A stretch of DNA of 63,575 nucleotides, filler included, from Collodictyon triciliatum (lineage: Eukaryota), in assembly GCA_043381765.1 (NCBI GenBank). It is 11 parts of 11 records of this genome, joined end to end, with 100 filler letters (N's around TTAATTAATTAA, not from the genome) between each part and the next. Parts side by side here need not be neighbours in the genome. Positions count along the whole stretch, not along the records: positions 44,464 to 50,713 come from JBHJMP010004604.1; 10 more parts are not named here. One strand, 5' to 3'. The position numbers were made by a program, and so were the translations under genes. Under the pieces are notes generated by a model. That model saw nothing but the letters and a program-made list of their open reading frames with translations. It ran no database searches and was not told the origin of the DNA. Each line of letters opens with the position of its first letter. The first letter of the stretch is position 1. Below are positions 23,763 through 60,658 of the stretch, in pieces.

Positions 23763-23834
23763 TCCGTTATGGTGTAGTCGGTAGCACGTATGGCTCTCAC
23801 CCATACAACCCGGGTTCGATTCCCGGTAACGGAA
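23763..23834 (+). tRNA. tRNA-Glu (anticodon CTC)
   Basis: Acceptor stem TCCGTTA/TAACGGA, anticodon arm TATGG-CTCTCAC-CCATA, T-arm CCGGGTTCGATTCCCGG, and a downstream TTTT Pol III terminator. Confidence 0.95.
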
Positions 23835-25427: not shown

Positions 25428-25902
25428 CCTATATTCGCCAATACAGTATATTAGTACTTTGATTGTAATTAAACCCTCTTTATTTAATCAATAAATAGAT
25501 ATCCATCCTGCCAGACAACATATCGAACTTGAATAATCTCACAAATCTCAGCATCAGCAACAACAAGGTACAAGTACTTGATTTAACAAGAATATATAAA
25601 CATAAATCTCAGCCTATCATAAATGAGAGTGTTCTGACGATTACCTACACTCCAAAGTTCAACGCATTGCCCGCAGCCATCTGCACATTGACACTCATCG
25701 CATCACTCGATATATCCACCAACCAGGTAACTAAATCCTTTTTTTTTAACAAGACATTCCTATATTCGCCAATACAGTATATTAGTACTTTGATTGTAAT
25801 TAAACCCTCTTTATTTAATCAATAAATAGATATCCATCCTGCCAGACAACATATCGAACTTGACGAATCTCACAAATCTCAGCATCAGCAACAACAAGGT
25901 AC
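25428..25902 (+). repeat. Near-identical duplication of an intron 3' end + LRR exon (25428-25571 and 25759-25902)
   Basis: The two 144-bp copies lie 331 bp apart and differ only at one codon (AAT versus ACG). Confidence 0.95.
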
Positions 25903-28900
25903 ACACATTCATATAGATATTGAATATATTTAAACACATAATTCAAACAGCCTAGTATACATTATACTTCATAAATTAACTGACAAATACACGGGGATTT
26001 TAGTTCGACACATTCCCCACAATCATCTGTACAATAACACATATCGCGACCCTCAATATTTCTGGAAATCAGGTTACAAAATTACACAACACATATTTTC
26101 AAAACAAAAAAAACTGATGAATGAACAATAGTTCAAACTATATTAATCAAATACCCTCTTAAACTCACCCATCGTACAAATCCAGATTTCATACATCCCA
26201 GATGTCATAGCAAACCTTGCAAATATTCAAAAACTGGACATATCCAACAACAAGGTCATATCTCTTCCGTTTTCCGTTTATTTGTTTATTTTTTTCCCAT
26301 TTTTTGGTTCAGTTTTATGGCCGTATTTCGCAAAAAAAAAAAAAAAAATAACAATATCATTATCAGATCGAAAAGCTACCCCAAATCATCGCCAAGCTTA
26401 AAGGCCTTCGAGGTGGACTGAATATCCAGGGAAATCAAATTAAAAATATCCCAGAAAACGTCATTAGAAATGGGTATGAGACTATCTTCGATTTCCTATC
26501 CAACTCCATGAATGGTGTTGTAAAATGGACCCAAGGAAGACTTCTGCTACTTGGTGAAGGAAACGTAGGGAAGACAACACTCATCAAATCAATCACACAA
26601 AATCACTGGTTTTTCAAGAATATGACAGACCAGCAAAGGATTGCAACTGATGGTATTGCCCACGTTGATATCGATGAGTCGATGATGGGTGGACTATTCA
26701 AGACAAAGATTTCCGTACAAATCTGGGATTTTGGTGGACAAGAGGAGTTCCAAGTAACACATCCATTCTTTTTGTCATCGGGCGCCCTCGTTTTAATCCT
26801 GTACAGACTCGACCAAGGCAAGGAGAAGAACAATCTCAGCCGCTGGGTCAAAATGCTCGATGACTTTGCACCTGGCTCAAAAATCATAATTGCTGGGACT
26901 CGTCAAGATTGCGAAAATCAAACTTATATTCAAGAGATGCAAAAAGAAATAGAACGTATCAAAAAAGAAAATGAGCGGAAACTGGATGAAAAAGCTCGCC
27001 ACATCTTCATCAGTACAGAGTTGAAAGTAAGCAACAAGAGAGGAACAAAAATATCATATTTGAAGGAAGAAGTATATAAAGGAATGATGACACTTGATAA
27101 CATGAACAAGGAAGTTCCAAAATCATACATTGGGCTGAAAGACTATCTGATTTCAAAAGGTCAAATATCGAAGTACGAACGAATCCAAAACACTTACGAT
27201 TTTGCCAAGAAGCAGCTGGGTATGGATAGAAATGAATGCGAAAGTGCTCTCAAATTCCTCCACGACCTTGGCTCGGTCGTTTGGTATTCATCACTTGAAC
27301 ATATCAAAGACATTATATTTTTAGACCCGCTCTTTCTCATTAATATATTCCGTTGTGTCTTCAGCTTCAAAGGTATCGGGAAGGACACAAATGGTATCAT
27401 TTTGTTGGGCAAGCTAAAAGACCAAATAAAACACGAATTGAAAATAGAACTAGATGAACATGTGTTCAATACAATTCTTCGAATCTTTGACCATTTCGGC
27501 CTTGGGATTCAATTCAACAAAGAATGCATCGCCTTTCCCTCACTGATGGAAGATTGCCAAAATCTCAAAGCATTATGGAATGAAAAACCAGAGTCAAACT
27601 GCATCGCTGAGACCTCTGTAGAGATAATTACCAATGGTGGAGTCCAGCTCTCTGACAAAAGCAACGTCGTCATACGGGCGCTTCGTTTGACAAAAGGGGC
27701 ACAAGCTGGAGTTCAGTATGACGACCAGTTTTTCAGAGATGTCGCATTCATACATCTGAATGCTTCGTACAAAACAGGAACGGATGAAATTCAACTGCTT
27801 CCTGGAGACGGTTTGATTATTTTGTATCAAATCCACCAGAAGAGCATTTCAGTCAAGATTAGAAAATACGAAAATGTGGTTCACGATGATGGCGATAGAA
27901 TCGTCAGGATTTTCGACATTCTTTGCACCTTCATCAAACAAATATCATCGATTCGACCAAATTTTGTGGAAGCATATCAATTTGAATGCCCTGAATGCCA
28001 ACGTCGTGGATTAGACGGTTATATTCAAACATCAGCAAAGATAAATGACTCAGAATTGAAAAAATGTACGAAGAGCCATCAATTGGAAGCGAGTACAGTG
28101 AAGCAAGGGCGCGTCTATCTGGAACAAGGTTTATTATAATCAATACATTCAAATATATTTTAATTTTCAACTTAATGATAATTTGATTATATGTTATCGA
28201 AAGCTTATAAATAATTTTTTTTAAAAAAAAGGAATCTCAAGGAGATTTGCCTCTGTGGTGAGAGCGAAAAAGACGAAGAAGTTGCAATCTGCTGAAGCAG
28301 TTCTTGAGCCGGATTCAATCGACCGGGAATTAAAAGACGAATGGATTCATGAAAAAATAGAACTGTCAGGTTATCTCGCAAAGGGGGCATATGGGCGAGT
28401 TTACACAACAACATTCAAAGGAAAAAGTGCTGTGGTGAAAATCCAAACTATGCAGAAGAACAAAGAGCAGACCTTCAGCGAGGTGATTCAATCGCTCATT
28501 TTTGAAAGCAAGTATCTGCATGAATGCAAGGAATGCGAAAACATTGTCAAATTGTTTGGTGTGTATCGTAAAGATGACGACTTTTTCATGATTATGGAGA
28601 ATGCAGGAATTTCGTTGAAAGCGATGTTGGAGAAGAAAAATATCAAGCCAACATTGCCTCAAGTCATTTCTTACACAATGCAACTTTGCAAGGGTCTCAT
28701 TTTCATGCATTCTAAAAATCTATATCACGAAGATTTGAAGGCCGATAACGTTATGATTGTGGGTGAAACAGTAAAAATTGTGGATTTTGGGATAGTGAGC
28801 CATCGCGACATAGAAAAGGTTGGTTCAAACTTACCGACGAGATTTGGTGAGAACAAGCAAGGCGGAACGGCTAATTGGCAAGCACCGGAAATCCATGAAG

Positions 28901-30678
28901 TCTCCTGTGAACCGTTTTATAATGATAATCCAAAAATGTATGGTGATGATGAAGTAAACATTGGCCATCGTGGAGAACCAAGTAATGTGTATGCTTTAGG
29001 AATGCTCGTTTGGTACATGTTCTCTGGTATCGAGCCGTTCCAGAATGAAACACAAACACAAAGTTTCATTATCAGGGGATTACGACTTGAAATACCGAAA
29101 GAAGCCACTCGGGAACTTAACCATCTCATCAAAACAAGTTGGAGGCAAAACTACAAGCTCCGACCTTCTCTGAATCAAGTTTCTGCATACCTGGATGAAT
29201 TGAAATCAGGCGAACAAAGGCTTTCTCAAAAGATGATGAGCGATTTGCTTCCAATTAAATACACTCCTTTGGCTGATATGTACCAGGGTGAATTTGTGGA
29301 GTGGCTTCGAGAGTATGGCTTTTTAAAACTAAGCGATATAATTTCAAATCAAAGCTGGGGAAGATTCCAAGAAATTCAAGACAAACTGGATGAAAGGATG
29401 ATGGTTGATATGTATCACATATCGCCGGATGAAATTTCTGCATTTGTTGAACTGTCGAAAGAGGAAGGCACTGGTAGCGATTCCCAAGCTCCAAAGAAAA
29501 AAGTTGAAGAATTATTTTACAGCCAATTGGTGACTCATCTCCAGAAAAAGAAAGACGAATTGTCAGAAAGACTGCTTGGGAAAGTGAAAGCTCTGAGGCT
29601 TGATGGAAAAACAATATCCAAGCTTGACCAGCCTGATGTCCACGCGATCCATTCGCTTTCTGAGCAAGAACTCTCGTTTGTGTCCCAATTCATAAACGAC
29701 CACCTACATCCAAATGAGATTGAGTCTCCTAAACATCCATTAAGCTCCGGTACCCTTCAAGATTTGGAAGAAATTCAATATATGAATGTGCGGTACATCC
29801 CTTACAATCATGGTATCCAACACGCAACCTCGCTGTGGATGGGCGATATGAAGCTCTCCCAGATTCCTAATTCGCTCAAGCATGTAGTCGGGTTAAAGAA
29901 ACTCTACCTCCATTCAAACCTAGTAATATTTACTTAATATCGATGAATAAATAAAATAAAAAAGCCACCAATACATTTAATTATTAACCATATTGTAACC
30001 CACCTCCTTTTTACAGCTTGTATATTTCCCGATGTCATGCTTCGCCCTTACGAACCTAGAGTATCTGGACTTATCAAAAAATAAGGTTTTCTGCTTGTGT
30101 TTTTTTTTTCTCCTTTACCAATTTTTAAATATACATATATACTAGTATATAATTTCATACCTGCATTTGAATCAACTTCATTCATAACTCCATTCTGCTC
30201 ATTTACTTTGATATACAGATATCATCAGTACCTGCTCAAATATCACACCTGACGGTTTTAACTCGCCTTGATGTCTCTCAAAATCAGTTGTCATCACTAC
30301 CTTCAGAAATATCATGCTTGAATGGTCTTATTCGCCTCGATGTCTTTCATAATCAGTTGATGTCACTGCCACAAGGATTATCGAGCTTAGCGTGCCTTGT
30401 ACAGTTGGATATCCGTGATAATTCGGTTTGTTAAATGTATAAATGTCGAAAAGTCAGGCCACTATTTTGAACTCATAATTATATTTCCATTCCTACATAT
30501 TGATGAGCTTCCTGCCGGAATTACTGCTCTGACTGCTCTCAGTCGCTTGTGCATCCGCAACAAAGAAGGAAAATCGAGCATCAAGAAGGCGCCTCCCGGC
30601 ATCACACTTCTGCCTTGTTGGAACGAGCAGAGCAATCCAGATTATGAAATAATTCGTAAACTGGTGCTTTATGACCAC
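25499..30678 (+). CDS. Roco protein: LRR-Roc-COR-kinase-(SAM-like helical region)-LRR; 5'-truncated, 3' end uncertain
   Basis: 69-nt LRR exons at 25499-25567, 25658-25726, 25830-25898, 26004-26072 and 26186-26254. Roc motifs GEGNVGKT, ATDGI and WDFGGQEEF. COR region with CPEC...C..H. A phase-1 intron (28129-28231) joins the kinase (KGAYG, HEDLKADN, DFG, APE). C-terminal LRR exons at 30017-30085, 30219-30425 and 30499-30678. Confidence 0.9.
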
Positions 30679-31798
30679 GTAAGAAATCTATGTTTGTTAT
30701 TCATTCACATGCTGCTCATATATAAGATAAATGCATTCGTATGTTAGTGTTTCTTTTTCTTTCTTCTTTTTTGGTTTGTTTTGTTTAAAAATAAAAGAAA
30801 TCTCAATTACTTATTTTATCAAACGACCAGCAGTAACCAAGAACTGGATTTTTTTCTGTATGAAGCCGGTTAAAGTGGTAAGGTGCAAGCTGGTATTAAA
30901 GTGTACAATATATCAAAATAGCTTTGTTTTTTTCGCTACTTCTTGAGTGTTGATGGTTGGAATATAGGTCATCAAAAAATCGGCAGGCAAATGCAGCATC
31001 TTTTTTGCTCCAACACCCGGCGATTTATTTTTACTACCTGCCAGCCAGCCAGCCAAGCGTTTCACAACCTGCTCACCTTTTTCTCCATCTTGACTCCCTT
31101 TTCACCCCATTTCACCCTTTCTTTCTCGGGTTTTTTCAGCACAGCTTTTCCCGATATCACAACCAGCAATCCACAAGCACCACACCCACACCAATGAGTC
31201 AGAATAAAGATGATAAAAAAAAAGCATGAGTAAGGTCAGCTCCAATATAAAATAATCATGTGGATACCAGACAGGAAAATGAGAGATAAAGAGAGGAGAA
31301 AGTAAGTCACGTGAAGACCTGGTGATTCCCTTGATTGTAATCCGCGATGCTCAATTAGTGATGCCTCAGTTATACGAGACATATACAAATTGCAACATTC
31401 GTCTGTCCATGGTCCTTTAAGGTTTTTCGATTGAGTGGGCTGTGTATCTGTGCGCAAGGTGATGCAAGATTCTGTATTAAAATTTTAAAAAAAGAAATAG
31501 GAAGAAATGGAAGTTTATCTTGCGATCACTTTTATTTTTTGCTTCTCATTAAATTTATCATGAGGTGAACAACATCTATTGAATTGTTTGTCTAAAGCGC
31601 AGTGATACATACATACATACATACATACATACATACATACATACATACATACATACATACATACATACATACATACATACATACATACATACATACATNN
31701 NNNNNNNNNNNNNNNNNNNNNNNNNNNNNNNNNNNNNNNNNNTTAATTAATTAANNNNNNNNNNNNNNNNNNNNNNNNNNNNNNNNNNNNNNNNNNNN

Positions 31799-38989: not shown

Positions 38990-40529
38990 ATGGGGAACTT
39001 ACAGTCGAAAGTAAAGTCAGTTCAAGAAAAGGGCATGAAAATCGAGGCCAGTATCGACGATGTACCTGCCTATTACATATATATTCTTTCAGGCCACCGA
39101 GTGCGCATTATCACATCCATCAATACCTTAATGTTCATTACGAGGGGCTTTTTTTTTTCAACTTGTAGTTGGGCGACCACTTTGAGAATCTGGACAATAT
39201 GATTACCGAAAAGTTTGTCAAGTTTAACTCACAATTGGATTCGTTGCAAGGAATTGTAATGGAACAGGTTTCGTAATCTCTTTGACAAAACTAAATGACC
39301 AAATGAATGAAGCAATCTCAGCCATTTACCAGTTAGCAATAGAGCCAAACGTACCCATATTATAGATTGCAGCACATCGCAGAGGCCACAACAAGAAGCT
39401 ATCTCTCCAAGAATCCACAATATCTCTGTGGAAGTCTGTCAACGCCGCTCATCGAGAGACTCCCAACACACCTTCACGGAGGTTTCAACCCAATCCCTTT
39501 CGTGCGCTGCAGCACATTAAGAATTGGAGCGCTATGAACGAATGTGTGCAATCGGTCTCTTACTTGCTCCAAACACCACCCGACATCCATCTGCGAGTCA
39601 GCCCGACACTCCTCTTGGAGAGTAGAACCACTGGACAAGCAGAGCTTCTGTCCAGCACCCCGTGGGTCTATGTTGGGCATTGGTCCATCACACGCCCTGT
39701 CCACGAAATCAAGGCACCGACAAAAGTCATTGGCTCTGAAGGATCTGGGCAGAACCAGTTCCGCTATCCATTCAACATCACTCTGCATCCGATTAACGGG
39801 CGCATATATGTCGCTGACTCAGAAAACAACCGAGTAGTCATCCTCACTTCATCTTTTTCGCCGTTTCTCATAATAACACAGCCAAGTCCAGGTTCAAGGC
39901 CTTTCCAAGACCCACGGGGCGTGGGCATCAGTCCTGATGGAAGTTTGATTGTGATTGTTGAGTGCGTTGGGAAGCAAATCCACTTGCTGGACATGAACCA
40001 TAACTTAATACGCTCCATCAACCAGTTGCCCGCAAATATTGTGAAAGCCACCACATCCTTGTATTACCCATACTACGCTGTCTTTGACCAACACTCCAAC
40101 TTCTACGTCAGCGACCGCGCAAACAACAGAGTCCTCAAGTTTGATCGGAACGGAAACCTACTGCGCCAAATCGGAGAACCCTCATCGCCCCGCCCGGCCG
40201 CATCAGTCCTCGGCATTCTTGTCAACGACGACGGGCTTTTACTCACTTATCCGCAGTCAGGAAATGTCCTTCGGGTGTATTCATTGGATGGCGAATTCAA
40301 GTATGAGAAAATGCTGGCCGAAACAAGAGACTTCAACAGCCTGGCGCGTGGGCCGGACGGCGGGTTTCTCATCTGCGACTGCTCAGCGAGTAGGATCGTA
40401 TTTTACGACCGCAACTGTTGCGAGATTCACCAGGTTCGCGTTCGTGGAGTAAGAGGGGCTGTCTACGCTCCCGATGGCAGGCTGTTTGCTCTGTCAGGCT
40501 ACCAAAGTCACTCCATACAAATATTCTAG
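38990..40529 (+). CDS. NHL-repeat beta-propeller protein with predicted N-myristoylation (MGNLQS) and a short coiled coil
   Basis: Three in-phase exons. NHL motifs GSGQNQFRYPFNI...IYVADSENNRV, FQDPRGVGI and FYVSDRANNRVLKFD. Confidence 0.85.
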
Positions 40530-44463: not shown

Positions 44464-45706
44464 ATGATTACCTCAGCAGAATGAAACCAAAAATCTGTTT
44501 AACACAGGAATTATGCCTCACAAATGTTCTTATTGCGATGTAAGGCTTTTTTAAGACGAATCAGTATCGATATTTTGTTCGAATGGGAAGATTCATCCAC
44601 CATTTATTGAACCACCGCCTGAATCCATCAGCTTTATTTGACGGAGATTTTGATTCACCTCAGCAATTTCTAAAATATATAAGCTAGAAAGAACTGATAT
44701 CAAATGAATCCAGTTAGGGCATCGAAGGAAATAATTGAAACATTTTTAACACTTCCTTCAAAATTCATGACAAAGAATATCATTTCTTGGGGTCTCTCCT
44801 TTTGTCGACGAATAAAAGTCCAAAATTTCTTGAAATACACATTTTTTTGGGATGAACATGGACAAGGTATGTTGAAGTACAAGATTCCGAAGCTTGGATT
44901 GGAAAATAATTCTTCACATCAAAGATTTACTGCACAAAATAATAAATTGGCACATGTCTTTAAAATGGCCCAAGAAATGTCGAATATCAATGAGCAAGTA
45001 ATATTAGCATTGAAGCTGACAGAAATGCAGAAGTTGAACACAAAAAGTTTCAATACCCGACTACTAATCAAGTGGCTGCTTCAATGATAGGATAACCCAA
45101 TAGCACAAGAGATATCATTATCAAGACGAATGATGACAGACTTAAAAGAGATATATGCACACATATATATTACGATGCTCTTCAATATCCCATCATATTT
45201 TGAAATGGTCATAATGGCTATCATCTCAATAATTACAAATTCGATTCCAAGAGAAAAACTGGAAGTTTTGGGCAATTTTTTTTTTAAATAAAAAAGGAAC
45301 TTGAAACAAAATTTATGGCTAAATGATTGTGATTAGACAAGCTGAAAATAAAATACCCTTGCTGGTAACAAGGACTTTATTTAACCAGTTCTTGGTGGAC
45401 ATGTATGCATAAGTTGAAGCAGATTTTTTTGTTTAAAAATAATCAAAAGAGCTTAGAGCATAGAATGATGCTCATCTATTAGATTCTGTCTCTTCTGATA
45501 GAAAAATAAAGAATGTTGTTAGAATGGTTATTTTATCTTCTGGGTATGTTGGCGAGCCTATATTCATGTATTTAAAGTTTCATCTCTTTAATATGGAACG
45601 AATTAAAGGGGCTCTCCCATGCGCACAATTTGGTTTGGGTTGAAAATCACATAAAATCAGACAAAATCGATGACATTATATCAGCATAACTCCCGAATGA
45701 GGACGA
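44464..45706 (+). mobile_element. Degenerate Helitron RepHel fragment (stops and frameshifts)
   Basis: Across frames: GIMPHKCSYC...FCSNGKIHPP, PTTNQVAA, RDIIIK...YDALQYPIIF*NGHNGYH, LFNQFLVDMYA*VE, RMVILSSGYVGEP, and the HUH-type motif KGLSHAHNLVW...IDDIISA*LP. Confidence 0.85.
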
Positions 45707-46676
45707 NNNNNNNNNNNNNNNNNNNNNNNNNNNNNNNNNNNNNNNNNNNNNNNNNNNNNNNNNNNNNNNNNNNNNNNNNNNNNNNNNNNNNNNNNNNNNN
45801 NNNNNNNNNNNNNNNNNNNNNNNNNNNNNNNNNNNNNNNNNNNNNNNNNNNNNNNNNNNNNNNNNNNNNNNNNNNNNNNNNNNNNNNNNNNNNNNNNNNN
45901 NNNNNNNNNNNNNNNNNNNNNNNNNNNNNNNNNNNNNNNNNNNNNNNNNNNNNNNNNNNNNNNNNNNNNNNNNNNNNNNNNNNNNNNNNNNNNNNNNNNN
46001 NNNNNNNNNNNNNNNNNNNNNNNNNNNNNNNNNNNNNNNNNNNNNNNNNNNNNNNNNNNNNNNNNNNNNNNNNNNNNNNNNNNNNNNNNNNNNNNNNNNN
46101 NNNNNNNNNNNNNNNNNNNNNNNNNNNNNNNNNNNNNNNNNNNNNNNNNNNNNNNNNNNNNNNNNNNNNNNNNNNNNNNNNNNNNNNNNNNNNNNNNNNN
46201 NNNNNNNNNNNNNNNNNNNNNNNNNNNNNNNNNNNNNNNNNNNNNNNNNNNNNNNNNNNNNNNNNNNNNNNNNNNNNNNNNNNNNNNNNNNNNNNNNNNN
46301 NNNNNNNNNNNNNNNNNNNNNNNNNNNNNNNNNNNNNNNNNNNNNNNNNNNNNNNNNNNNNNNNNNNNNNNNNNNNNNNNNNNNNNNNNNNNNNNNNNNN
46401 NNNNNNNNNNNNNNNNNNNNNNNNNNNNNNNNNNNNNNNNNNNNNNNNNNNNNNNNNNNNNNNNNNNNNNNNNNNNNNNNNNNNNNNNNNNNNNNNNNNN
46501 NNNNNNNNNNNNNNNNNNNNNNNNNNNNNNNNNNNNNNNNNNNNNNNNNNNNNNNNNNNNNNNNNNNNNNNNNNNNNNNNNNNNNNNNNNNNNNNNNNNN
46601 NNNNNNNNNNNNNNNNNNNNNNNNNNNNNNNNNNNNNNNNNNNNNNNNNNNNNNNNNNNNNNNNNNNNNNNNNNNN

Positions 46677-48050
46677 GTTGAGAATCATAAAGCAAGCTTA
46701 TAACATAATAAAAGGACATCCCCTTACAATTAGAGAGCGTCTTGATTTTATATTTTTGATTATTCGTAGTGATTAAGTTGCGGCAGATGTCTTTCAGCTC
46801 CTTCAGCCTTTGGGGATTCAGAAAAGTACCTTTCATGTTGTAGATAAAGGCCGACAGCATCACTCGATTCCACAACCTTACTTTCCCCACGTCCGAGAGA
46901 TGAAAGTTGCTCCACCCTGATATTTTCGACTTGATGTCTTCAACCAGGCTTGTCCATTTGCTATCCAATTGTGGACCGAAGATGATACCAAGATGCTTGA
47001 GTGGATGTGAGAGTGGCTTCCACACAATGTTTCCTGGAAACACAAGTCCGTCCTGAGAACCGAAAAGAATTCCATCTGTTTTTTCGTAGTTGATTTTCCC
47101 GCTGACAGCTCGTGTGTATTCCTGCATGCATTTGTTGGCGAGTGTGGCGCCTTCGTGAGACCGCAAGATGAACTCTGTGTCGTCTGCATATTGAAGTAGC
47201 AGTTGGTTGTGTACCTTGTTTTCGTTTCGGAAGTGGTTTGCAAGGCAAAGTCAGCGACAAAGTTGAAGAGCAGTGGTGCAAGTGGGCAGCCTTGATACAC
47301 CCCGCTCTGTCTTTGAATTGCATCCGTAGGTCCGTGTGCCGTGAGTGCCTTTCTGTTGCATTGTCGTGCAGTTTCTTGATAAGACCGGTCAATCCGGTAC
47401 AGAAGCCTCTTTTGTGTAGGATGGTTTCCAGTGCTTCGTGGTTCACATAGTCGTATGCTTTCTCCAGGTCGTAGAAAATCATAGCACGGTGTACCCCGCT
47501 TACTTGATATTCCATGTACTCCTTATTGTCAATCCAGATGTTTGTGTCGATGTTCCTTCCGTTCATGAAACTAATCTGCTCTTTGGATATGAGTTTGTAA
47601 GCGATGGGTGATATGCGATTTCTGAGTAGCGTCGTAAATATCTTATAGTCGTTATTCAACAGTGATATTGGCCGCCAGTCTGCAAGGTTGCTCGAGTCTC
47701 CTTTCTTTGGTATCAGCCGCACCGTGGCCTCTGTAAATCCTTGCAGTAGGTCGCCACCAGACATGATTCCATTCAGAAAAGCCACCAAGGGTGCCTTGAC
47801 CTCATTAAAGAAAGCAGAGTATATTCCGTTTGGCAACCTATCTGAACCTGGCGCCTTTCCGTTGTGTAGCGACTTGACCGCTTTCCACAATTCGCCTGCA
47901 TCTATTGGTGCTATCATGCTGGCTGCTTACGAGTATGAAGTCTTAGAGCAGTTTGTGGTGATAAGCTCGAGAGTAGCAGCATCATAGTCTTATCTTGACC
48001 ACATATTTGAGAAGAAGTCGTGGGTGTTCTTTTTGTTGTTACGAGGTTAT
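46677..48050 (-). mobile_element. Non-LTR retrotransposon (L1/Tx1-like) reverse transcriptase, frameshifted; 3' part lies in the gap
   Basis: KAPGSD, LIPKKGD...WRPISLLNNDYKI, DLEKAYD, QGCPLAPLLF and YADD (47179-47190) fall in three different frames. Confidence 0.92.
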
Positions 48051-48596
48051 AAATGCTGTATATCTGCAGAGTGTGTGCAGGAAGGATACATGGTCTTTTC
48101 TATTTTTCTTTCCTAGTCCAAAGCACCATTCCTCCATCTGTTCAAGGTCTCGCAAGTATCTCGCTTACATTTTTCATGTTATTTGTGAATATCTTGATTT
48201 TCTATTTAGACTTCAGAGTGATTCATATCGAGCATCTTGGGATATTAATGCTGCTGGCCTGTTATTTATATTTATATATATATATTTGTTGTTGTTGCTA
48301 ACCGAATAAGATTTCTGTGTCATCTCTATTCTTTGATATTATGTGAGTGCATGCCGATGTTAATAAATATCTTAAATCTGGTAGACGCGGATGACTCTAA
48401 CTGTCGCCTGTGTTCGAAAACACAGCTAAACGTCTCCCTAGCAAAAAATGCTTTCCACCTTCCTCATATGAATAAAATAAATAAATAAATAAGTCTGTAA
48501 GCAAGATAATGATGATAGCCTTTCCTCTTTTATTCTATAACTCGACTAGTTCTAGATAAAGTCCTATCCTTTTGCTCTTCTCTCTCCCTACTTTCT

Positions 48597-50549
48597 CTAA
48601 TCTGAGCTTCCATCGAACCGTGCCAGCTGCGTTATCTACCATCCCCGTTTCAAATAATACAGAAAAAAAAAAGAAAGAGGGAAAAAGTACAGCCGTATTT
48701 TACAAAAAAGAAAAATCGTTGCTTTGGTTCTTGATAAAATGAAAAGTAATCAGATATCGATTCTAATCCTTGACTCTTGGGTATCGTGTAATCTGCCTCA
48801 CCTTATTGTTGGCAACATCCAGCATTTCAAGATTGCACAGTCGATCGATGGCGTCGGGGATGGCTGTTATCTGGTTGATGATGCGTCATTCTTTACATCT
48901 TGTTTGATATGACCGATAAGATTACAGTCCTAACAGATTCATGCTCACCGACGGTGTCTCAAGATTCGTGCTTTACCTTGTTGTTGGATAAGTCGAGTTG
49001 CTTTAACAAAGTCAGGCGAAGCACGCACGCAGGAACATCGGTAAGCTATTTTATCAAGATGAGTCCATTTTCTGAGATAAAGTCTCGCCATCAAAGAAAA
49101 TTACGCGGTTTCTCGCAAGACATAAGTAGCTCAAGGTCTGTAGGAGTGTGATGCTCTCAGGTAACGTCCAGAGGCTCATTCTATACAGGCTCAAGCTTTT
49201 GATGAGGATTTGCTGTGCGGTTGGAGTCCATCCTGGCTCTGCTACCGATTCAATCTACACACAAATCCGTCCTTTATTCTTTATTTCCATCTTACATTCA
49301 GCTTTTGTAATGTGACCAAAAGATGAGATTTGTAGAAAATATAGTCGCGCCATCTATATATTGAATGACTTACCGATTCGTAGAGCTGAAGTGCACGAAT
49401 GAGTTTGTACTCACTATGTCCGGTGTTGCTCCAGCACGGTATATTTGTGATGCCAAGCGGAGCCCTCTGAATCGACTGTTGTCCTCTGCCTTTTATCCAA
49501 AGCTCTTTGAGATTGGTGAGCTCTGCAATTTGCTGTGGAAGCTCTTCTATCTACAGGCAATTTTTTTTTATGGAGAGTCTCTTCTGATATCTACTATGAT
49601 TATATTTTAAACTAACCGGAGTAGCATCTACATTTAAACTCAAGAGCCCAGTCAGGCAGGAGATTTGTGGAGGCAATAATGGCAACTGATTATAACTGAG
49701 CTTAAGACATGTAATACCAGTCCAATGCAGTATTTCTGGGGGTAGTGATGATAGTTGGTTGCCACGAACATCAATATCTTTGAGATTGGTCAAGCACGAT
49801 ATTTCTTGTGGAAGCGATGACAATTGATTATTACACACATCAACACATGTGATAGCTGACAAACATGATATTTCTTGTGGAAGTGATGAAAATTGATTAT
49901 AGCTAATATCGAGAAGTGTGAGACCAGTCAAACATGATATTTCTGGTGGAAGCGATGATGATTGATTGTAACTCGCATCAAGGCATGTGAGACCAGTCAA
50001 GCACGATATTTCTGGGGGCAATAACGACATCTTATTGTTGTGTACAGCTAGATACATGAGACCAGTCAAACAAGAAATTTCTAATGGCAGCGAAGAGAGT
50101 TTATTGTCACTAATATCAATGTATGAAAGGCCAACCAAGCATGAGATTCCTGAAGGTAGCATTGAAAGCCTATTGTTGTGGACACACAGATATGTAAGAC
50201 CAGTCAAACATGATATTTCTGGTGGAAGCGATGACAATTGATTAGAAGTGACAGCAAGGTGTATAAGGCCGGTCAAACACGATATTTCTTGTGGGAGCGA
50301 AGACAACTGATTGTAGTTTGCATCGAGATGTGAGAGACCAGTCACACGCGATATTTCTGGAGGGAGCGAAGACAGTGAATTCAGGTAAAGTTCCAGCCGA
50401 ACCAAACGGTCCAACTCAAAGACAGCGAGAGGAACCGATATCATACTCCTTTCTCGAAGATTCAGCAAGGTGCGGGCTTTAAGAGTTTCGACATCCTCAT
50501 CCCCTGTGATTTTCAGCAGCTTCTCTAAAAGCGCGTTGTGGTCGGACAT
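48597..50549 (-). CDS. LRR protein related to the Roco LRR modules (last exon tentative)
   Basis: Exon 1 (49617-50549) holds about 12 repeats of 23 aa, xLxLxxNQLSSLPPEISCLTGL. It is followed by a cap exon (49374-49550), exon 49105-49254, and 69-nt exons at 48977-49045 and 48802-48870, all phase 0. Confidence 0.85.
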
Positions 50550-50847
50550 CCAAGGAAAGGGGCAGTGGAGTCGGTTTGGGCGGATTCCGAGGCTGTGAGG
50601 GCGAGTGTACTGAGTTGTGTCTTTTGTGTCTTTTGTGTCTTTTGTGTCTTTTGTGTCTTTTGTGTCTTTTGTGTCTTTTGTGTCTTTTGTGTCTTTTGTG
50701 TCTTTTGTGTCTTNNNNNNNNNNNNNNNNNNNNNNNNNNNNNNNNNNNNNNNNNNNNTTAATTAATTAANNNNNNNNNNNNNNNNNNNNNNNNNNNNNNN
50801 NNNNNNNNNNNNNAAAAGGAACAAAAAAAAAAAAAAAAAAAAAAAAA

Positions 50848-54684: not shown

Positions 54685-55180
54685 GTTATGAGTCCCAGTC
54701 CTCCCTCCGTAGGTGGCTTAGAGAGCGTCTTGATTTTATATTTTTGATTATTCGTAGTGATGAAGTTGCGGCAGATGTCTTCCAGCTCCTTCAGCCTCTG
54801 GAGACTCAGCAAAGTGCCTTTCGTGTTGTAGATAAGGGTCGACAGCATCACTTGGTTCCACAACCTTACTTTCCCCACGTCCGAGAGATGAAAGTTGCTC
54901 CACACTGATATATTCGACTTGACGTCCTCAGCCAGGCTTGTCCATTTGTTATCTGATTGTGGACCGAAGATGATGCCAGGATAGTTGAGTGGATGTGACG
55001 GTGGCGTCCACACAATATTCCCTGGAAACATAAGTCCATCATGAAACCCAAAAAGAATTCCATCTGTCTTGTCGCAGTTGATTTTTCCCACCAAGAGCAT
55101 GTGTGTATTCTTGCATGCATTTTTGGCGAGTGTGGCGCCTTCGGGAGACCGCAAGATGAATGCTGTGTCGTCCGAATATG
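54685..55180 (-). mobile_element. Second, 5'-truncated copy of the same LINE (RT C-terminal part)
   Basis: Aligns by eye with 46730-47190. It begins at YSDD and includes SNFHLSDVGKVRLWN and KPPTEGGLGL. Confidence 0.9.
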
Positions 55181-55372
55181 TTTATTTCCAATGCGAAAAC
55201 AGCAGGAAATATCAAACTCATCACGAATAAGCATGCAAGATATGTCTAAATTATTGATGAGATAGGGATAAACGAAGTTCAAAGCTTGAGGATTTATTAG
55301 TTACGAAGATACTTTGACAGATGTATGAATTACCACACACAATTATTTTTCTTGCACCAACGAACTCTTAAT

Positions 55373-57389: not shown

Positions 57390-59918
57390 TTATTTCGCCC
57401 TGGGTTGGTACTTGAAAGTGTGGGCGAGTTTGAGATAACCTGCTGCCTTCTCCTCGTTCTTGGGAATGCTTGGGAGTCCGGAGTAGGCATATGCAAGCAA
57501 AAAGCACGCTGCAGCATGCCCCAACTCTGCCGTGGCTCCCAGGGTCGAAAGAGCTTCCTCCACCTCTGCCGCAGAGTCAGATGACTCCAGTTTTCGAAGA
57601 GAATGCTCATACCTTGCCTCCAAATGCCCCATTTCAGAGGCCGCCAGAAGGTTTCTACAGTTTTGCAAGAAACCCAGCTCATCCGGCTGATTCTGGGGGA
57701 GACTCGCTTGATTCGTATGCGCTGTGTAGAAGTGGGCGTGTGGGTTCGGTGATAGTTCACTAGCTTGCTTGTAAAGCTCGATCTTTTTTTGTGCTTCCCG
57801 CATAGGTAGTATCCGGCCTTCAAGGAACGTAAAGACTGACATCAATTGCTGCTCACTCGCACCAGACAGTTGCGATGGGCGTTCTTGGGCCAGCATGCGG
57901 GCCTTAATACGGTCTAATGTGCTCTTCATAGAGTCGCGATGGACATCTGTCCAACCCGTTTCGTGGTTGTGAAGTTCCACGCAAAGCTGAAATGCTTCGT
58001 TTTTCGGGCAGTGGCGGGGTGACTGAAGTAAAAGACAGTGTAGCATCAACCCACACAAACTGCTGCATGTTTTTTTGTATAAACTATACAGCTTTTCGAT
58101 GTTTGATTTGAGAGAAGGGCGACTCAAGAATGAAGCTAGAATGGAAGAAACTTGTTCGAGTTCTTCGGATTGTTCTATTCCTACCAAGGAACTTAACATC
58201 GCTTGTTGTATCTGTGGCGGCCTGAAGCTCACCGAAGTAGTTGGTGAATGCCAATTTTGTTGTTGTTTTTGTTGTTGTTGTTGCTGCTGCAACCAAGATG
58301 ATGATATGATAGGTTGAGGTTCATAATGCTCCTGCGCTGGTACAGGGTTACAAGCTATTGATATGGGCTTAATTGGTAATTGGGGCACAGGCCCGACGTT
58401 CTCACCATGTAGCGCAGTAGTGGGTGTTATTTGGGAAAATGTTGGCCCTTCGTTTAATGAAGACTGTGTACTAGAGGTTGACACGGTGGGTAATAGATGG
58501 GAGTATCCTTGATGAGGTGGATTTGATATTCTACTTGTATGCACAGATGTGGGCTGAGAGTCCTGAGAATCCGTCTCGTCTACTTGACATATAGGACGAC
58601 TTTTAGCATCAAGTGATACTGGGTATTGTAGGCTTTGTTTACTCAATCCAAGAGGAGCCCTCTGATTGATAGAAGCCTTAGCCATACATTCGTTCAAGTG
58701 GCACTGAGTAATAATCAGCATGCTGGTATCAAAAAAATAATCACGAGTATCGCAACCTCTGCATATTTCTCTTGGGTCAAGTGCGATTAAGTCTTGAAGT
58801 CCAAGGTTCTTTTCCAGTCGTCGTCGTCTCGAAAAATTCGAAACATCACAAGGACTGCCACCCTCGAGAACAAAATTTAAGAAATATTCGAGAGACGCTT
58901 GACTCTCATGATGCTCCATTCTTTGATCTGATATGGAAACTGAACCGAGTATCCGAGATAAAAAATCCATCGATCTTGAACTTTCCAGCAAGTCAACAAA
59001 GTTGGACAGCATCCCCAAGTCGATGCGTCCCAACCCGTCGGACAGTTTCGAGAGGGCGTCATCCAGTGCATCTAGTCCGTCACACTTGTACGATCCAATA
59101 ATCTCTACTATATCCTTCAGAAAGAATTTTGGGGATAAATTAAGCAATTTCAAAGACTGGGCTGCGTGTCTATCTCGTGCGATTGAAGATCTGGATGCGG
59201 TAGATTCTTTTACCAAACAAAACAGTAACGTTTCACAAATCAACCGCACAAGAGCCTTCTCAAGTTCAATCCTTCTATTGGCTGCATTATCCTCATTCAC
59301 GGCTAGACCTTGAAGCTCATGCATGAGCGACTGCGAATACATTTGCTTGCACAGTTCAAGAAAGCCTTCGGGAGTCGGAATTTGGGCAGCCAGCACAGGA
59401 TGAACCAGATAGAGGCGAGCAGCAGGGGCTGCAAGATCTATGAGCGGAGGAAGACTCATGTACGCCACAAAGGCCGAACAGCTGCCTGGAAACAGGCGCA
59501 AGGCCGAAGCGGCCGCGCGAGACCACTGGCGCGCAAGACAGATGGAAGTGAGCAGGGCCGAGTCTGACACGGAGTCGAACGGAAGCTGCATAGAGAGGGC
59601 ACTAGAGACAACGAGGCTGACCTGCAGGGTCAAACCTGGGGGCTGTGAGTGCGGATGGCGGGCGTACTCGACAAAGTATGGTATCACAAAGTCGCACGGT
59701 GGATACACTGCAGACAATGGCACGGAGATATTATCAGGGATGTGGCTTGTGGAGCCGTAGATTATGCGCGTCTGGTGCGGTGGGAGGGCGCAGGGGCCGG
59801 CCGGGGTTTGGGTTAGCCACGCGGAGGAGATATGTTCGCCCAATTCTGGGAGGCAGAGCAGCTGCCAGGGTATGTGTGGCGCAACAGACAGCCACGTCTC
59901 TGGATTGGCCACGAGCGG
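57390..59918 (-). CDS. Large hypothetical protein with Cys motif, polyQ linker and C-terminal Sel1-like repeats (5' end in gap)
   Basis: Uninterrupted frame of about 840 codons containing CRGC, AASEMGHLEARY and TAELGHAAACFLLAYAY...KNEEKAAGYLKLA. Confidence 0.7.
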   Translation of the reverse strand, partial: PLVANPETWLSVAPHIPWQLLCLPELGEHISSAWLTQTPAGPCALPPHQTRIIYGSTSHIPDNISVPLSAVYPPCDFVIPYFVEYARHPHSQPPGLTLQVSLVVSSALSMQLPFDSVSDSALLTSICLARQWSRAAASALRLFPGSCSAFVAYMSLPPLIDLAAPAARLYLVHPVLAAQIPTPEGFLELCKQMYSQSLMHELQGLAVNEDNAANRRIELEKALVRLICETLLFCLVKESTASRSSIARDRHAAQSLKLLNLSPKFFLKDIVEIIGSYKCDGLDALDDALSKLSDGLGRIDLGMLSNFVDLLESSRSMDFLSRILGSVSISDQRMEHHESQASLEYFLNFVLEGGSPCDVSNFSRRRRLEKNLGLQDLIALDPREICRGCDTRDYFFDTSMLIITQCHLNECMAKASINQRAPLGLSKQSLQYPVSLDAKSRPICQVDETDSQDSQPTSVHTSRISNPPHQGYSHLLPTVSTSSTQSSLNEGPTFSQITPTTALHGENVGPVPQLPIKPISIACNPVPAQEHYEPQPIISSSWLQQQQQQQKQQQNWHSPTTSVSFRPPQIQQAMLSSLVGIEQSEELEQVSSILASFLSRPSLKSNIEKLYSLYKKTCSSLCGLMLHCLLLQSPRHCPKNEAFQLCVELHNHETGWTDVHRDSMKSTLDRIKARMLAQERPSQLSGASEQQLMSVFTFLEGRILPMREAQKKIELYKQASELSPNPHAHFYTAHTNQASLPQNQPDELGFLQNCRNLLAASEMGHLEARYEHSLRKLESSDSAAEVEEALSTLGATAELGHAAACFLLAYAYSGLPSIPKNEEKAAGYLKLAHTFKYQPRAK

Positions 59919-60658
59919 NNNNNNNNNNNNNNNNNNNNNNNNNNNNNNNNNNNNNNNNNNNNNNNNNNNNNNNNNNNNNNNNNNNNNNNNNNNNNNNNNN
60001 NNNNNNNNNNNNNNNNNNNNNNNNNNNNNNNNNNNNNNNNNNNNNNNNNNNNNNNNNNNNNNNNNNNNNNNNNNNNNNNNNNNNNNNNNNNNNNNNNNNN
60101 NNNNNNNNNNNNNNNNNNNNNNNNNNNNNNNNNNNNNNNNNNNNNNNNNNNNNNNNNNNNNNNNNNNNNNNNNNNNNNNNNNNNNNNNNNNNNNNNNNNN
60201 NNNNNNNNNNNNNNNNNNNNNNNNNNNNNNNNNNNNNNNNNNNNNNNNNNNNNNNNNNNNNNNNNNNNNNNNNNNNNNNNNNNNNNNNNNNNNNNNNNNN
60301 NNNNNNNNNNNNNNNNNNNNNNNNNNNNNNNNNNNNNNNNNNNNNNNNNNNNNNNNNNNNNNNNNNNNNNNNNNNNNNNNNNNNNNNNNNNNNNNNNNNN
60401 NNNNNNNNNNNNNNNNNNNNNNNNNNNNNNCAATAATCACGAAGAGCTCCCACTTTCCTTTTCATTAAACATTCTTACTTTCCCACCCAAGCACGAAGTC
60501 GCCAGTTGGGGGTGAAGTGGGTGGAATGCAACATCAGTGGCTGTTTCCGTGTACCTCGCTATTTTATGTAAGACTGTTACTTTGTGAAGGTCGTGCAATT
60601 ATGCAGGCTATATGAATACGCATCAGATTTTAGCCAGCACCAGCCATTAATTCATATC

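What the first reader, a model, noticed from the sequence alone, without database searches (positions are those of the whole stretch)
48597..50549. Stand-alone LRR gene shares and rearranges the modules found at the Roco C-terminus
Seen: its cap exon IEELPQQIAELTNLKELWIKGRGQQSIQRAPLGITNIPCW...YKLIRALQLYES aligns with the Roco exon IDELPAGITALTALSRLCIRNKEGKSSIKKAPPGITLLPCW...YEIIRKLVLYDH (30499-30678), with the same exon boundaries. Both genes carry NQLSSLPxEISCLxGL repeats and a 69-nt exon ending LDLSxNK. The order differs: the Roco runs head, 69-nt exon, intronless block, cap, while this gene runs intronless block, cap, head, 69-nt exons. The two genes are on unrelated contigs. Inference: a multi-gene family assembled from interchangeable phase-0 modules.
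Basis: partly seen in the sequence, partly recalled or inferred. Interest (0 to 1): 0.75.

Follow-up and report, generated by a model that had tools for sequence, protein, structure and literature searches.

The report
LRR gene with family-specific cap exon
This is an intron-split leucine-rich-repeat gene from a protist family of head–repeats–cap modules that the neighbouring-contig Roco kinase also carries, in the same order rather than a rearranged one.

Summary
The sequence observations hold. On the minus strand, 50549-48597 gives a six-exon, 478-aa LRR protein. All five introns are GT-AG and phase 0. Its 59-aa cap exon matches the Roco exon 30499-30678 (46% identity, E 3e-18). The non-LRR half alone gives E 4e-13, and 0 of 5000 shuffles reach the observed score.

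The claim that the module order differs is not supported. Both genes read head, LRRs, cap, and the LRR gene then begins a second module.

The cap (…SIxRAPxGITxLPCW…LxLY) has no Pfam or PDB match. It recurs in Diphylleia rotans transcripts and in seven unnamed short contigs. In my tabulation, 21 of 33 caps are followed by more LRRs, so cap then head then LRRs is the usual order.

In that family the LRR module is fused to Roc-COR-DUF4062-AAA, kinase, RING or NYN RNase domains.

Exon-level duplication is real: a 145-nt exon-plus-intron copy at 99% identity lies in the Roco.

The Roco cap exon lacks an AG acceptor.

The LRR gene stops mid-repeat, about 560 bp upstream of detectable homology to a 5'-truncated LINE. 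It may therefore be a truncated form.

One LRR per phase-0 exon in ROCO genes is already known from brown algae.

Interest is moderate.

The parts
49617..50549 (-). LRR gene exon 1 (311 codons). It holds the ATG, an N-terminal head (...ETLKARTLLNLRERSMISVP...) and about 12 units of 23 residues, 10 of them of the LSSLPxEISCLTGL type, with no introns.
   Evidence: Pfam LRR_8 E 1.9e-29. N-head HMM 31-36 bits, reaching model position 20.
49374..49550 (-). LRR gene exon 2, the cap exon (59 codons). It is one LRR followed by GQQSIQRAPLGITNIPCW...LQLYES. Acceptor tgtag, donor gtaagt, phase 0-0.
   Evidence: No Pfam family at E<=0.01.
49105..49254 (-). LRR gene exon 3 (50 codons). It is a linker plus a first LRR that lacks the Asn (LSLYRMSLWTLPESI...).
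   Evidence: It is collinear with the post-cap segment of Diphylleia proteins. It scores only at generic LRR level with the N-head HMM and 6 bits with the internal-head HMM.
48977..49045 (-). LRR gene exon 4, 69 nt, one LRR (LTDVPACVLRLTLLKQLDLSNNK), phase 0-0.
48802..48870 (-). LRR gene exon 5, 69 nt, one LRR (ITAIPDAIDRLCNLEMLDVANNK), phase 0-0. Its nearest unit is the Roco N-terminal exon 26186-26254 (62% DNA identity, tBLASTn E 1.6e-5).
48597..48635 (-). Putative last exon (ITQLARFDGSSD, then TAG). It starts like an LRR and then loses the pattern. AATAAA lies 65 nt after the stop. This is a model only, with no transcript evidence.
   Evidence: No LRR- or cap-like ORF further downstream.
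46720..48034 (-). Decayed, 5'-truncated LINE (reverse transcriptase) downstream of the LRR gene, running into the 970-N assembly gap at 45707-46676.
   Evidence: Pfam RVT_1 E 7.2e-15. tBLASTn with ORF2 relatives starts at about residue 425 of 1302 and shows no endonuclease part. A second copy at 54718-55179 is 89% identical.
30499..30678 (+). Roco cap exon (60 codons), donor gtaaga. It is preceded by ...ctacAT instead of AG. An in-frame AG lies at 30506-30507.
   Evidence: The unnamed-contig ORF P0124 is 73% identical across the exon and both flanks, and has Q where the window has H at the acceptor.
30219..30425 (+). Roco intronless block of three LRR units, one of them LSSLPSEISCLNGL.
   Evidence: blastn to exon 1 of the LRR gene gives up to 81.5% over 65 nt.
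30017..30085 (+). Roco 69-nt LRR exon (LVYFPMSCFALTNLEYLDLSKNK), phase 0-0.
29791..29922 (+). Roco head (...GIQHATSLWMGDMKLSQIPNSLKHVVGLKKLYLHSNL) at the end of the kinase exon. It is homologous to the N-terminal heads of Diphylleia family members and to the start of the LRR gene.
   Evidence: N-head HMM 26-31 bits, reaching model position 15-17.
25499..29790 (+). Remainder of the Roco gene on this contig. It has five 69-nt LRR exons (25499, 25658, 25830, 26004, 26186), a Roc-COR exon (26367-28128) and a kinase exon (from 28232). The 5' end is cut by the contig start.
   Evidence: Pfam Roc E 1.3e-20, COR-A 1.8e-12, Pkinase 1.3e-34. The exon model has no stops.
25428..25903 (+). Tandem duplication: 145 nt (71 nt of intron, a 69-nt exon and 5 nt of the next intron) at 25428-25572 and 25759-25903, 99% identical. 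The first copy starts at the contig end.

Best explanation
Window 48597-50549 (minus strand) encodes a cytosolic LRR-only protein with no signal-peptide-like start.

It belongs to a lineage-restricted family of 23-residue, SHOC2/Ras-group-type LRR proteins built from a repeating module. The module has three parts. First comes a head: a first LRR without the Asn, preceded by ...ESLxxATxLxL. Then comes a run of LRRs. Last comes a cap: one LRR followed by G-x-x-S-I-x-R-A-P-x-G-I-T-x-L-P-C-W ... L-x-L-Y.

The LRR domain after the Roco kinase is one such module: a head, then 1+3 LRRs, then a cap. The LRR gene is one complete module, with head and about 12 LRRs in exon 1 and the cap in exon 2. It is followed by the start of a second module (exons 3-5) that breaks off 12 codons into a sixth exon. 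The order is the same in both genes, and nothing has been permuted.

Shown: the homology of the caps, of the heads and of the block units; the exon phases; the internal position of caps in relatives.

Inferred: the family changes repeat number by duplication or loss of symmetric 69-nt phase-0 exons together with their introns, and by in-exon 69-nt repeats. The protein probably acts as a binding horseshoe whose concave-face residues vary. It would serve either as an adaptor or competitor for the partners of the multidomain Roco, kinase and RING relatives, or as a truncated remnant of one of them.
For: The gene model has 5 of 5 GT-AG phase-0 introns.

Cap homology: E 3e-18. The non-LRR half alone gives E 4e-13, and 0 of 5000 shuffles reach the score.

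A profile of the two caps, run against 1.84 billion representatives, gave 716 hits at E<=1e-3. Among the best 150, 27 carry a cap scoring >=44 bits with my iterated HMM. I looked up 26 of those 27: 19 are Diphylleia rotans transcripts and 7 are unnamed NCBI contigs of 523-734 nt.

Caps recur inside proteins. P0121 has 5, and P0282 has 4 spaced about 130-143 aa apart. In 21 proteins, 21 of 33 caps are followed by an LRR motif within 110 aa.

An alignment of 18 Diphylleia cap-plus-170-aa segments with spliced exons 2-6 is collinear.

The head-specific part of the N-head HMM is matched only at 50334-50498 and 29791-29919 among 2803 window ORFs.

The Roco N-terminal 69-nt exons are the nearest units to exon 5.

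In the block units, framework positions 2, 5, 8 and 22 are invariant while differing synonymously in 17-67% of pairs. Positions 6, 15, 16, 20 and 21 differ non-synonymously in 74-88% of pairs.

An AlphaFold model of the relative P0127 (pLDDT 74.7) matches SHOC2 and Leptospira LRR proteins.

Exon duplication: 145 nt at 99% identity.
Against: Exon 3 is not demonstrably homologous to the Diphylleia internal head. It scores 6 bits with that HMM, and only at generic LRR level with the N-head HMM. Its placement rests on collinearity.

The grammar was read from another organism. Its Rocos are only 32-36% identical to the window's. Trinity isoforms may also be mis-assembled.

Only two caps exist in this window.

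The last exon and the stop are a model with no transcript support. The protein ends mid-repeat, whereas in my tabulation the Diphylleia LRR domains end in a cap or run into Roc. This fits truncation as well as a genuine short form.

My motif filter missed some caps that the HMM found, such as P0121 828-872 and P0174 223-268, so the count of 21 of 33 is rough.

Foldseek TM-scores are low (0.35-0.39, rmsd 8-11 Å), so the model does not say whether the cap interrupts the solenoid.

The function is pure inference.
Confidence: 0.6

Rival explanations
1. The two genes are assembled from the same interchangeable phase-0 exons in different orders: Roco as head, 69-nt exon, block, cap; LRR gene as block, cap, head, 69-nt exons. 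On this view, exon shuffling permutes modules within the family.
For: The LRR exons are symmetric, phase 0-0 and of equal length (69 nt), which is the precondition for shuffling. Exon-level duplication is seen. At the domain level the LRR module lies after the kinase in the window's Roco but before the kinase in Diphylleia P0143 and P0174. LRR exon shuffling in ROCO genes is documented in brown algae (PMC3341825, passages read).
Against: With it, both genes read head, LRRs, cap. Cap followed by head and LRRs is the common order in transcript-derived relatives. The introns next to the two cap exons share no similarity beyond splice signals, and the exons are only about 55-60% identical in DNA, so there is no sign of recent exchange between the loci.
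Confidence: 0.1
2. The locus is the 5' part of a longer multidomain gene whose 3' part was lost or displaced by the LINE insertion, a rearrangement or the assembly gap. The lost part would be Roco-like (head, LRRs, cap, head, single-LRR exons, then Roc-COR...) or RING/NHL-like as in P0157. The 478-aa product would then be a truncation, and possibly a pseudogene.
For: The model ends 12 codons into an exon that begins like an LRR (ITQL...) and then loses the pattern. Exons 4-5 resemble most the single-LRR exons that precede Roc in the window's Roco. In Diphylleia Rocos, caps are followed by head and LRRs and then Roc. A 5'-truncated LINE in the same orientation lies downstream, with ORF2 homology from 48034. 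The poorly conserved ORF2 linker could account for part of the 560 bp in between. A 970-N gap follows.
Against: No Roc, COR, kinase, RING or further LRR similarity occurs anywhere downstream on the contig, including 44464-45706 beyond the gap. The LINE 5' junction could not be placed. All five introns and all ORFs of the retained part are intact. AATAAA lies 65 nt after the stop. LRR-only transcripts exist in Diphylleia, for example P0134 (311 aa) and P0131 (275 aa).
Confidence: 0.25
3. Exon 1 is not the first exon. The gene continues upstream of the contig end, as in the Roco, where the same head lies after a kinase. The 'stand-alone' appearance would then be an artefact of a 6.25-kb contig.
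For: Only 164 nt lie between the ATG and the contig end, and the frame stays open through them. In the Roco the homologous head is internal.
Against: The upstream open frame is a (TGTCTTT)n microsatellite. In my alignment, 13 Diphylleia family members place this head at the very N-terminus, about 20-35 residues after Met1, as here. In the tabulation of 20 Diphylleia proteins, 15 have a head hit of at least 52 bits starting at residues 1-6. The nearest upstream cag would be out of phase with the ATG frame; this comes from my own reading.
Confidence: 0.07

Closest known systems
Head-LRR-cap proteins of Diphylleia rotans (EukProt EP00002 transcript models such as P0121, P0148, P0143, P0174, P0144, P0157, P0166, P0127, P0134). 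The family is unnamed. I found no paper on it: a search for 'Diphylleia' plus 'Roco' gave 0 papers.
   Same: They share the cap motif (45-70 bits with the cap HMM), the N-terminal head, the 23-residue LRRs and the order head, LRRs, cap, then optionally head, LRRs, cap. Their Roc-COR domains are the closest to the window's Roco among proteins longer than 1029 aa, at 32-36% identity against 27% or less for all others. Their kinase plus following region is 32-34% identical.
   Different: They come from a different organism or are distant paralogues, and there is no near-identical counterpart of either window gene. Diphylleia modules mostly have about 3 LRRs between caps, whereas the LRR gene has about 12. 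The four closest Rocos (P0148, P0207, P0316, P0317) carry no kinase, and three of them carry AAA_16 with or without DUF4062. The window's Roco instead carries a kinase and a C-terminal LRR module. Exon structure in Diphylleia is unknown because only transcripts are available.
Brown-algal (Ectocarpus) LRR-ROCO genes with one LRR per exon and exon shuffling. PMC3341825: passages read. PMC11378527: search listing and abstract only.
   Same: They are ROCO-family genes whose LRR domain is cut into equal-length exons whose length is a multiple of three, one repeat each. Repeat number varies by exon gain and loss. They are candidate recognition receptors.
   Different: There the exons are 72 nt and 24 aa ('type I LRR exon'); here they are 69 nt and 23 aa. 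Here long runs of LRRs (3 and about 12 units) lie in single exons. Here a family-specific cap and head frame the module, and I saw no such cap in the passages I read. The lineage is unrelated. Shuffling between genes is not shown here, only tandem duplication.
SHOC2 / RSU1 / Ras-group LRR proteins, and LRR-only proteins of Leptospira (LIC10831 and others).
   Same: They have the 23-residue LxxLxLxxNxLxxLPxxIxxLxx repeat. They are the best structural matches of the model of relative P0127 (E 2e-13 to 1e-11), and the best PDB sequence matches of the LRR half of the cap (RSU1 E 4.5e-7, SHOC2 E 7e-5).
   Different: Matches cover only profile positions 1-22, and nothing in the PDB matches the RAPxGITxLPCW...LxLY half. 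TM-scores are low at 0.35-0.39. These proteins have no head/cap periodicity.

Membership tests
Leucine-rich repeat proteins, 23-residue Ras-group/SHOC2-like class | Tandem LxxLxLxxNxLxxLPxxI repeats recognised by LRR profile HMMs | tested here: met
   Exon 1: LRR_8 E 1.9e-29, LRR_14 5.9e-25, LRR_4 1.4e-18. It holds 13 units of exactly 69 nt in register.
Leucine-rich repeat proteins, 23-residue Ras-group/SHOC2-like class | Curved solenoid (horseshoe) fold | tested here: inconclusive
   The spliced protein could not be submitted for folding. The relative P0127 was folded (pLDDT 74.7, about 90 in the LRR parts). It matches SHOC2 and LIC LRR structures with probability 1.0 but TM only 0.35-0.39.
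ROCO proteins | Roc GTPase followed by COR domain in the same polypeptide | tested here: not met
   For the LRR gene, Pfam finds only LRR families in exon 1 and none in exons 2-3, and there are no Roc/COR-like ORFs on its contig. For the other gene (26367-28128) the feature is met: Roc E 1.3e-20, COR-A E 1.8e-12.
Head-LRR-cap family (Diphylleia-type, unnamed) | Cap: an LRR followed by ...S-I-x-R-A-P-x-G-I-T-x-L-P-C-W ... L-x-L-Y | tested here: met
   The LRR gene cap scores 67 bits with the iterated cap HMM, whereas generic LRR pairs score 13-38 bits. The score distribution is bimodal.
Head-LRR-cap family (Diphylleia-type, unnamed) | N-terminal head (...ESLxxATxLxL + Asn-less first LRR) about 20-35 residues after Met1 | tested here: met
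   N-head HMM: 35.8 bits against the four test sequences and 31 bits (i-E 3e-8) against 2803 window ORFs. The alignment starts at model position 20, inside the head-specific part.
Head-LRR-cap family (Diphylleia-type, unnamed) | The LRR domain ends in a cap or continues into an effector domain | tested here: not met
   The model ends 12 codons into a sixth exon, with no second cap and no effector domain. This is why truncation is kept as a rival.
Exon-shuffled LRR-ROCO genes of the brown-algal kind | Each LRR encoded by its own exon of constant length, a multiple of three | tested here: inconclusive
   True for exons 4-5 of the LRR gene and for 6 exons of the Roco (69 nt, phase 0-0). But about 12 units in the LRR gene and 3 in the Roco lie in single exons.
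Exon-shuffled LRR-ROCO genes of the brown-algal kind | Evidence that exons moved or were duplicated, i.e. near-identical exons with flanking intron | tested here: met
   This holds for tandem duplication only: 145 nt (intron plus exon) at 99% identity, 331 bp apart, in the Roco. The first copy abuts the contig end, so an assembly artefact is not excluded. No exchange between the two genes is seen.

The most novel reading that the evidence does not exclude
The head-LRR-cap module may be the variable sensor of a so far undescribed innate-immunity-like receptor repertoire in a deep-branching protist lineage (Diphylleia and the source of this window). In this reading the same sensor is wired to Roc-COR-DUF4062-AAA (STAND-like), kinase, RING/B-box/NHL and NYN-RNase outputs. 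Its repeat number and module number would be diversified by duplication or loss of symmetric 69-nt exons, and possibly by alternative splicing. As a lead only: single Diphylleia Trinity genes give isoforms with 1 to 4 caps, for example DN4080, which gives P0281, P0123 and P0282. LRR-only genes such as this one would then be decoys or adaptors in that network.
Probability: 0.15. Interest if true: 0.7.

Novelty: new variant of a known kind. Interest (0 to 1): 0.38.

Why it matters
One LRR per phase-0 exon, in genes linked to ROCO GTPases, has so far been described for brown algae. Finding the same arrangement with a different unit length in an unrelated protist would point to convergent use of exon-modular LRR domains as evolvable binding surfaces. 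The unit here is 69 nt rather than 72, and it comes with a lineage-specific head and cap.

The cap motif has no Pfam or PDB counterpart, so it is a handle for cataloguing this family. The set of domains fused to the module in Diphylleia resembles the domain mix of immune and cell-death signalling proteins elsewhere; that resemblance is from my own knowledge, not from a call here.

For this particular locus the practical outcome is more modest. The supposed rearrangement dissolves once the head in exon 1 is counted, and the gene may be a truncated family member.

Tried and rejected
(1) A near-length homologue search with exon 1 returned 801 hits, all generic LRR proteins. The best was 45-51% identical, there was no self-hit and no close relative, so it was uninformative for the family.

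(2) Pfam on the cap exons and exon 3 returned no family at E<=0.01.

(3) The ESM Atlas search with the cap exon returned only generic LRR clusters, and the recognition value was below the tool's stated level.

(4) The PDB sequence search with the two-cap profile matched only the LRR half.

(5) The Foldseek PDB search with the P0127 model returned generic LRR proteins at low TM. It does not show whether the cap breaks the solenoid.

(6) A first regular expression for the cap was too strict and was replaced by an iterated HMM. That HMM also gives 40-48 bits to a plant RPV1-like protein with 47-residue repeats (P0132) and 42 bits to a Stichococcus-cluster protein (P0170). I do not count these as members.

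(7) I searched for further LRR, cap or head ORFs downstream of either gene and on the other nine contigs, and found none.

(8) I tried to place the LINE 5' junction. The second copy shares only 462 bp. ORF2 relatives align only from 48034 downstream. The junction is unresolved.

(9) The internal-head HMM against exon 3 scored 6 bits, so homology is not shown.

(10) The literature search was set too loosely (31,313 papers) and gave nothing useful. One search ('Diphylleia' plus 'Roco') found 0 papers. The statement that the family is not in print rests on that one search of the held library only.

(11) I did not try to name the source organism of the window or of the unnamed contigs.

Intron positions in relatives therefore stayed unchecked.
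Full report
**What the window is.** The 63,575 bases are eleven short contigs, nine of them about 6.25 kb, joined by N44-TTAATTAATTAA-N44 spacers. The finding lies on contig 44464-50713, which has an inner gap of 970 N at 45707-46676. The Roco gene lies on contig 25428-31698. Composition is about 26-51% G+C in 2-kb windows, mostly 30-43%. Introns are short, and microsatellites sit at contig ends. This is a fragmented eukaryotic assembly.

**The LRR gene.** On the minus strand an ATG at 50549 opens a 311-codon exon. Five further exons follow: 49550-49374, 49254-49105, 49045-48977, 48870-48802 and 48635-48597. All five introns are GT-AG and phase 0, and the product is 478 aa.

Exon 1 is in exact 69-nt register for 13 units, and ten of them are of the LSSLPxEISCLTGL type. 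Pfam sees LRR_8 (E 1.9e-29) and related models in exon 1, and nothing in exons 2 and 3.

The last exon is only a model. It starts ITQL..., as an LRR would, then loses the pattern and stops after 12 codons. AATAAA lies 65 nt after the stop.

**The observation.**
- The cap exon and the Roco exon 30499-30678 align at 27/59 identities, E 3e-18.
- The half that is not an LRR aligns on its own at 16/35, E 4e-13. None of 5000 shuffles reaches its score: 96 observed, against a mean of 17.9 and a maximum of 44.
- In the whole window only these two copies exist.
- LPxEISCL occurs 7 times in exon 1, once in the Roco block, and nowhere else in six frames.
- The Roco unit at 30288-30356 is 62-71% identical in DNA to the exon-1 units, as similar as those are to each other. 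blastn finds up to 81.5% over 65 nt.
- Both cap exons end ...LY-x-x followed by GTAAG.

Two points need correction.
- First, the Roco cap exon is preceded by ...ctacAT, not AG. It is the only non-GT-AG junction among the 9 Roco introns I modelled. An in-frame AG lies 9 nt further on. An ORF on an unnamed 523-nt contig (P0124) is 73% identical across this exon and the translated intron flanks on both sides. It has Q where the window has H at the acceptor. That is consistent with CAG in the relative and CAT here.
- Second, the introns next to the two cap exons do not align, so the exons are old paralogues.

**The Roco gene.** My model has ten exons and 1418 codons with no stop.
- Five 69-nt LRR exons come first.
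- Roc-COR follows (Pfam Roc E 1.3e-20, COR-A E 1.8e-12).
- After a phase-1 intron comes a kinase exon (Pkinase E 1.3e-34).
- The kinase exon ends in the 'head'.
- Then come a 69-nt LRR exon, a three-unit block and the cap.
- Eight of the nine introns are phase 0.

The gene is cut at its 5' end by the contig start. The cap exon ends in a donor with no stop, so the C-terminus is not known. I found no LRR-like ORF in the remaining 1 kb.

A 145-nt stretch (71 nt of intron, a 69-nt exon and 5 nt of the next intron) occurs twice at 99% identity, 331 bp apart. This is direct evidence of exon-level duplication. The caveat is that the first copy abuts the contig end.

**What the cap is.** A profile of the two caps, searched against 1.84 billion representative proteins, gave 716 hits at E<=1e-3. 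Many of these arise from summed generic LRRs.

An HMM iterated on the fetched hits separates true caps (about 44-81 bits) from generic LRR pairs (13-38 bits). Two outliers I do not count: a plant RPV1-like protein and a Stichococcus-cluster protein.

Of 27 cap-bearing representatives among the best 150, I looked up 26. Nineteen are transcript models of Diphylleia rotans (EukProt EP00002). Seven are ORFs on unnamed NCBI contigs of 523-734 nt. A twentieth Diphylleia protein, P0157, has weaker caps.

The cap half has no match in Pfam, in the PDB by sequence or in the ESM Atlas.

**Where caps sit.** In Diphylleia proteins the cap is usually internal and recurrent. P0121 has five, and P0282 has four spaced about 130-143 residues apart.

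In a tabulation of 20 Diphylleia representatives plus the window gene, 21 of 33 caps are followed by an LRR motif within 110 residues and 12 are not. The 12 either end the LRR domain or lie in fragments. My motif filter dropped a few caps that the HMM had found, so these counts are rough.

Aligning 18 Diphylleia cap-plus-170-residue segments with the spliced exons 2-6 gives a collinear picture: cap, L-x-L-Y, a linker of similar length, a first LRR, then two or three LRRs, then often the next cap.

**The heads.** An HMM of the first 75 residues of 13 Diphylleia family members was run over all 2803 window ORFs of 12 or more codons. It reaches its head-specific part (model positions 15-28) in only two places. 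One is the N-terminus of exon 1 (50334-50498, 31 bits). The other is the Roco head (29791-29919, 26 bits).

It scores 6 bits with an HMM of the Diphylleia internal heads.

So the Roco head corresponds to the start of exon 1. Both genes read head, LRRs, cap, and the LRR gene then starts a second module.

**Family context.** The LRR module is fused in Diphylleia to Roc-COR with DUF4062 and/or AAA_16 (P0121, P0148, P0207, P0190). It is also fused to a kinase (P0143, P0174), to a RING finger (P0144) and to a Zc3h12a-type NYN RNase (P0166). It also occurs in short LRR-only models (P0127, P0131, P0134).

Among proteins over 1029 aa, the closest Roc-COR relatives of the window's Roco are four Diphylleia models at 32-36% identity. 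The next best hits are 27% or less. None of those four has a kinase.

The window's kinase region is 32-34% identical to the Diphylleia LRR-kinases. Those carry the LRR module before the kinase, not after it. Order does therefore vary at the domain level across the family, though not between the two window genes.

**Structure and function.** An AlphaFold model of P0127 has mean pLDDT 74.7. It is about 90 in the LRRs and below 50 in the loop after PCW. It matches SHOC2 and Leptospira LRR proteins at probability 1.0 but TM 0.35-0.39. I draw no conclusion about whether the cap interrupts the solenoid.

Among 12 block units, framework positions 2, 5, 8 and 22 never change in protein while differing synonymously in 17-67% of pairs. 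Positions 6, 15, 16, 20 and 21 differ non-synonymously in 74-88% of pairs. This is the usual LRR pattern of a conserved frame and a variable face. It argues that the repeats evolved under constraint.

A binding or adaptor role is inference.

**Is it stand-alone?** Downstream on the same strand lies a decayed LINE. It has RVT_1 at E 7.2e-15. Homology to ORF2 relatives runs from 48034 to 46720, starts at about residue 425 of 1302, and shows no endonuclease part. The LINE then runs into the assembly gap.

The 560 bp between the stop and 48034 have no recognisable content, and the LINE junction could not be placed. Beyond the gap nothing resembles LRR, Roc, kinase or RING.

The gene may be a genuine short member or a truncated 5' part of a multidomain gene. 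I give the latter about one chance in four.

Upstream, only 164 nt of microsatellite separate the ATG from the contig end. The head lies as close to Met1 as in the Diphylleia proteins, so a true start is likely.

**Comparison with what is known.** In Ectocarpus ROCO genes each LRR is encoded by a 72-nt exon, and exon shuffling underlies their variability (PMC3341825, passages read; PMC11378527, listing and abstract only).

The present case is the same kind of architecture with 69-nt exons. It is mixed with intronless runs, framed by a head and a cap that are specific to this lineage, and it occurs in an unrelated protist.

A search of the held library for 'Diphylleia' with 'Roco' found no paper.

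**Verdict.** The interpretation of rearranged modules is not supported, while the family and its phase-0 modularity are. I rate it a new variant of a known kind, of moderate interest.

Noticed in passing
window 6259-6358, 12615-12714 and so on; whole window: The window is a concatenation of eleven separate contigs. Nine are about 6.25 kb, one is 3.8 kb and one is 2.5 kb. They are joined by N44-TTAATTAATTAA-N44 spacers. Two contigs have inner N gaps (45707-46676 and 59919-60430).
   Followed up: yes
window 30426-30507: The Roco cap exon is preceded by ...ctacAT instead of AG. This is the only non-GT-AG junction among 9 modelled Roco introns. A related ORF on an unnamed contig (P0124) has Q where the window has H at that spot, and an in-frame AG lies 9 nt inside the exon. 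It could be a sequencing error, a polymorphism or a real splice defect.
   Followed up: partly
window 25428-25572 and 25759-25903: A 145-nt direct repeat at 99% identity, spaced 331 bp, covers intron end, a 69-nt LRR exon and the next intron start. The Roco N-terminal exons alternate between two types (ISxLPD... and FxxxPxxIC...), which suggests a two-exon duplication unit. The first copy begins at the contig end.
   Followed up: partly
window 46720-48034 (minus) and 54718-55300 (minus): Two decayed copies of one LINE family lie on different contigs, 89% identical over 462 bp. The first has frameshifts and lacks the endonuclease part.
   Followed up: partly
window 39366-40529 (+): A 387-codon open frame with NHL repeats (Pfam NHL E 2.6e-11). 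It is weakly similar (24% over 169 aa, E 3e-7) to the NHL end of the Diphylleia LRR-RING protein P0157. It may be another arm of the same protein network.
   Followed up: partly
window 10646-11752 (-): A 369-codon WD40 open frame (Pfam WD40 E 1.7e-37) lies in a stretch of 51% G+C, inside a contig that is otherwise about 31% G+C and flanked by microsatellites.
   Followed up: no
window 57393-59918 (-): An 842-codon open frame with no Pfam family at E<=0.001 runs into an N gap.
   Followed up: no
window 23763-23834 (+): One tRNA gene (Rfam RF00005, 67 bits). It is the only Rfam match at gathering threshold in the window.
   Followed up: no
Diphylleia rotans clusters of P0123, P0131, P0257 and P0207: Single Trinity 'genes' yield many isoforms of different length. 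DN4080 gives models of 236-665 aa with 1 to 4 caps, and DN3098 gives nine models of 131-423 aa. This may reflect alternative use of module exons, or mis-assembly of repeats.
   Followed up: no
window 49972-50241 (+), antisense to exon 1: Long open frames occur on the strand opposite the LRR repeats. They are most simply a by-product of the 69-nt periodicity and not genes.
   Followed up: no
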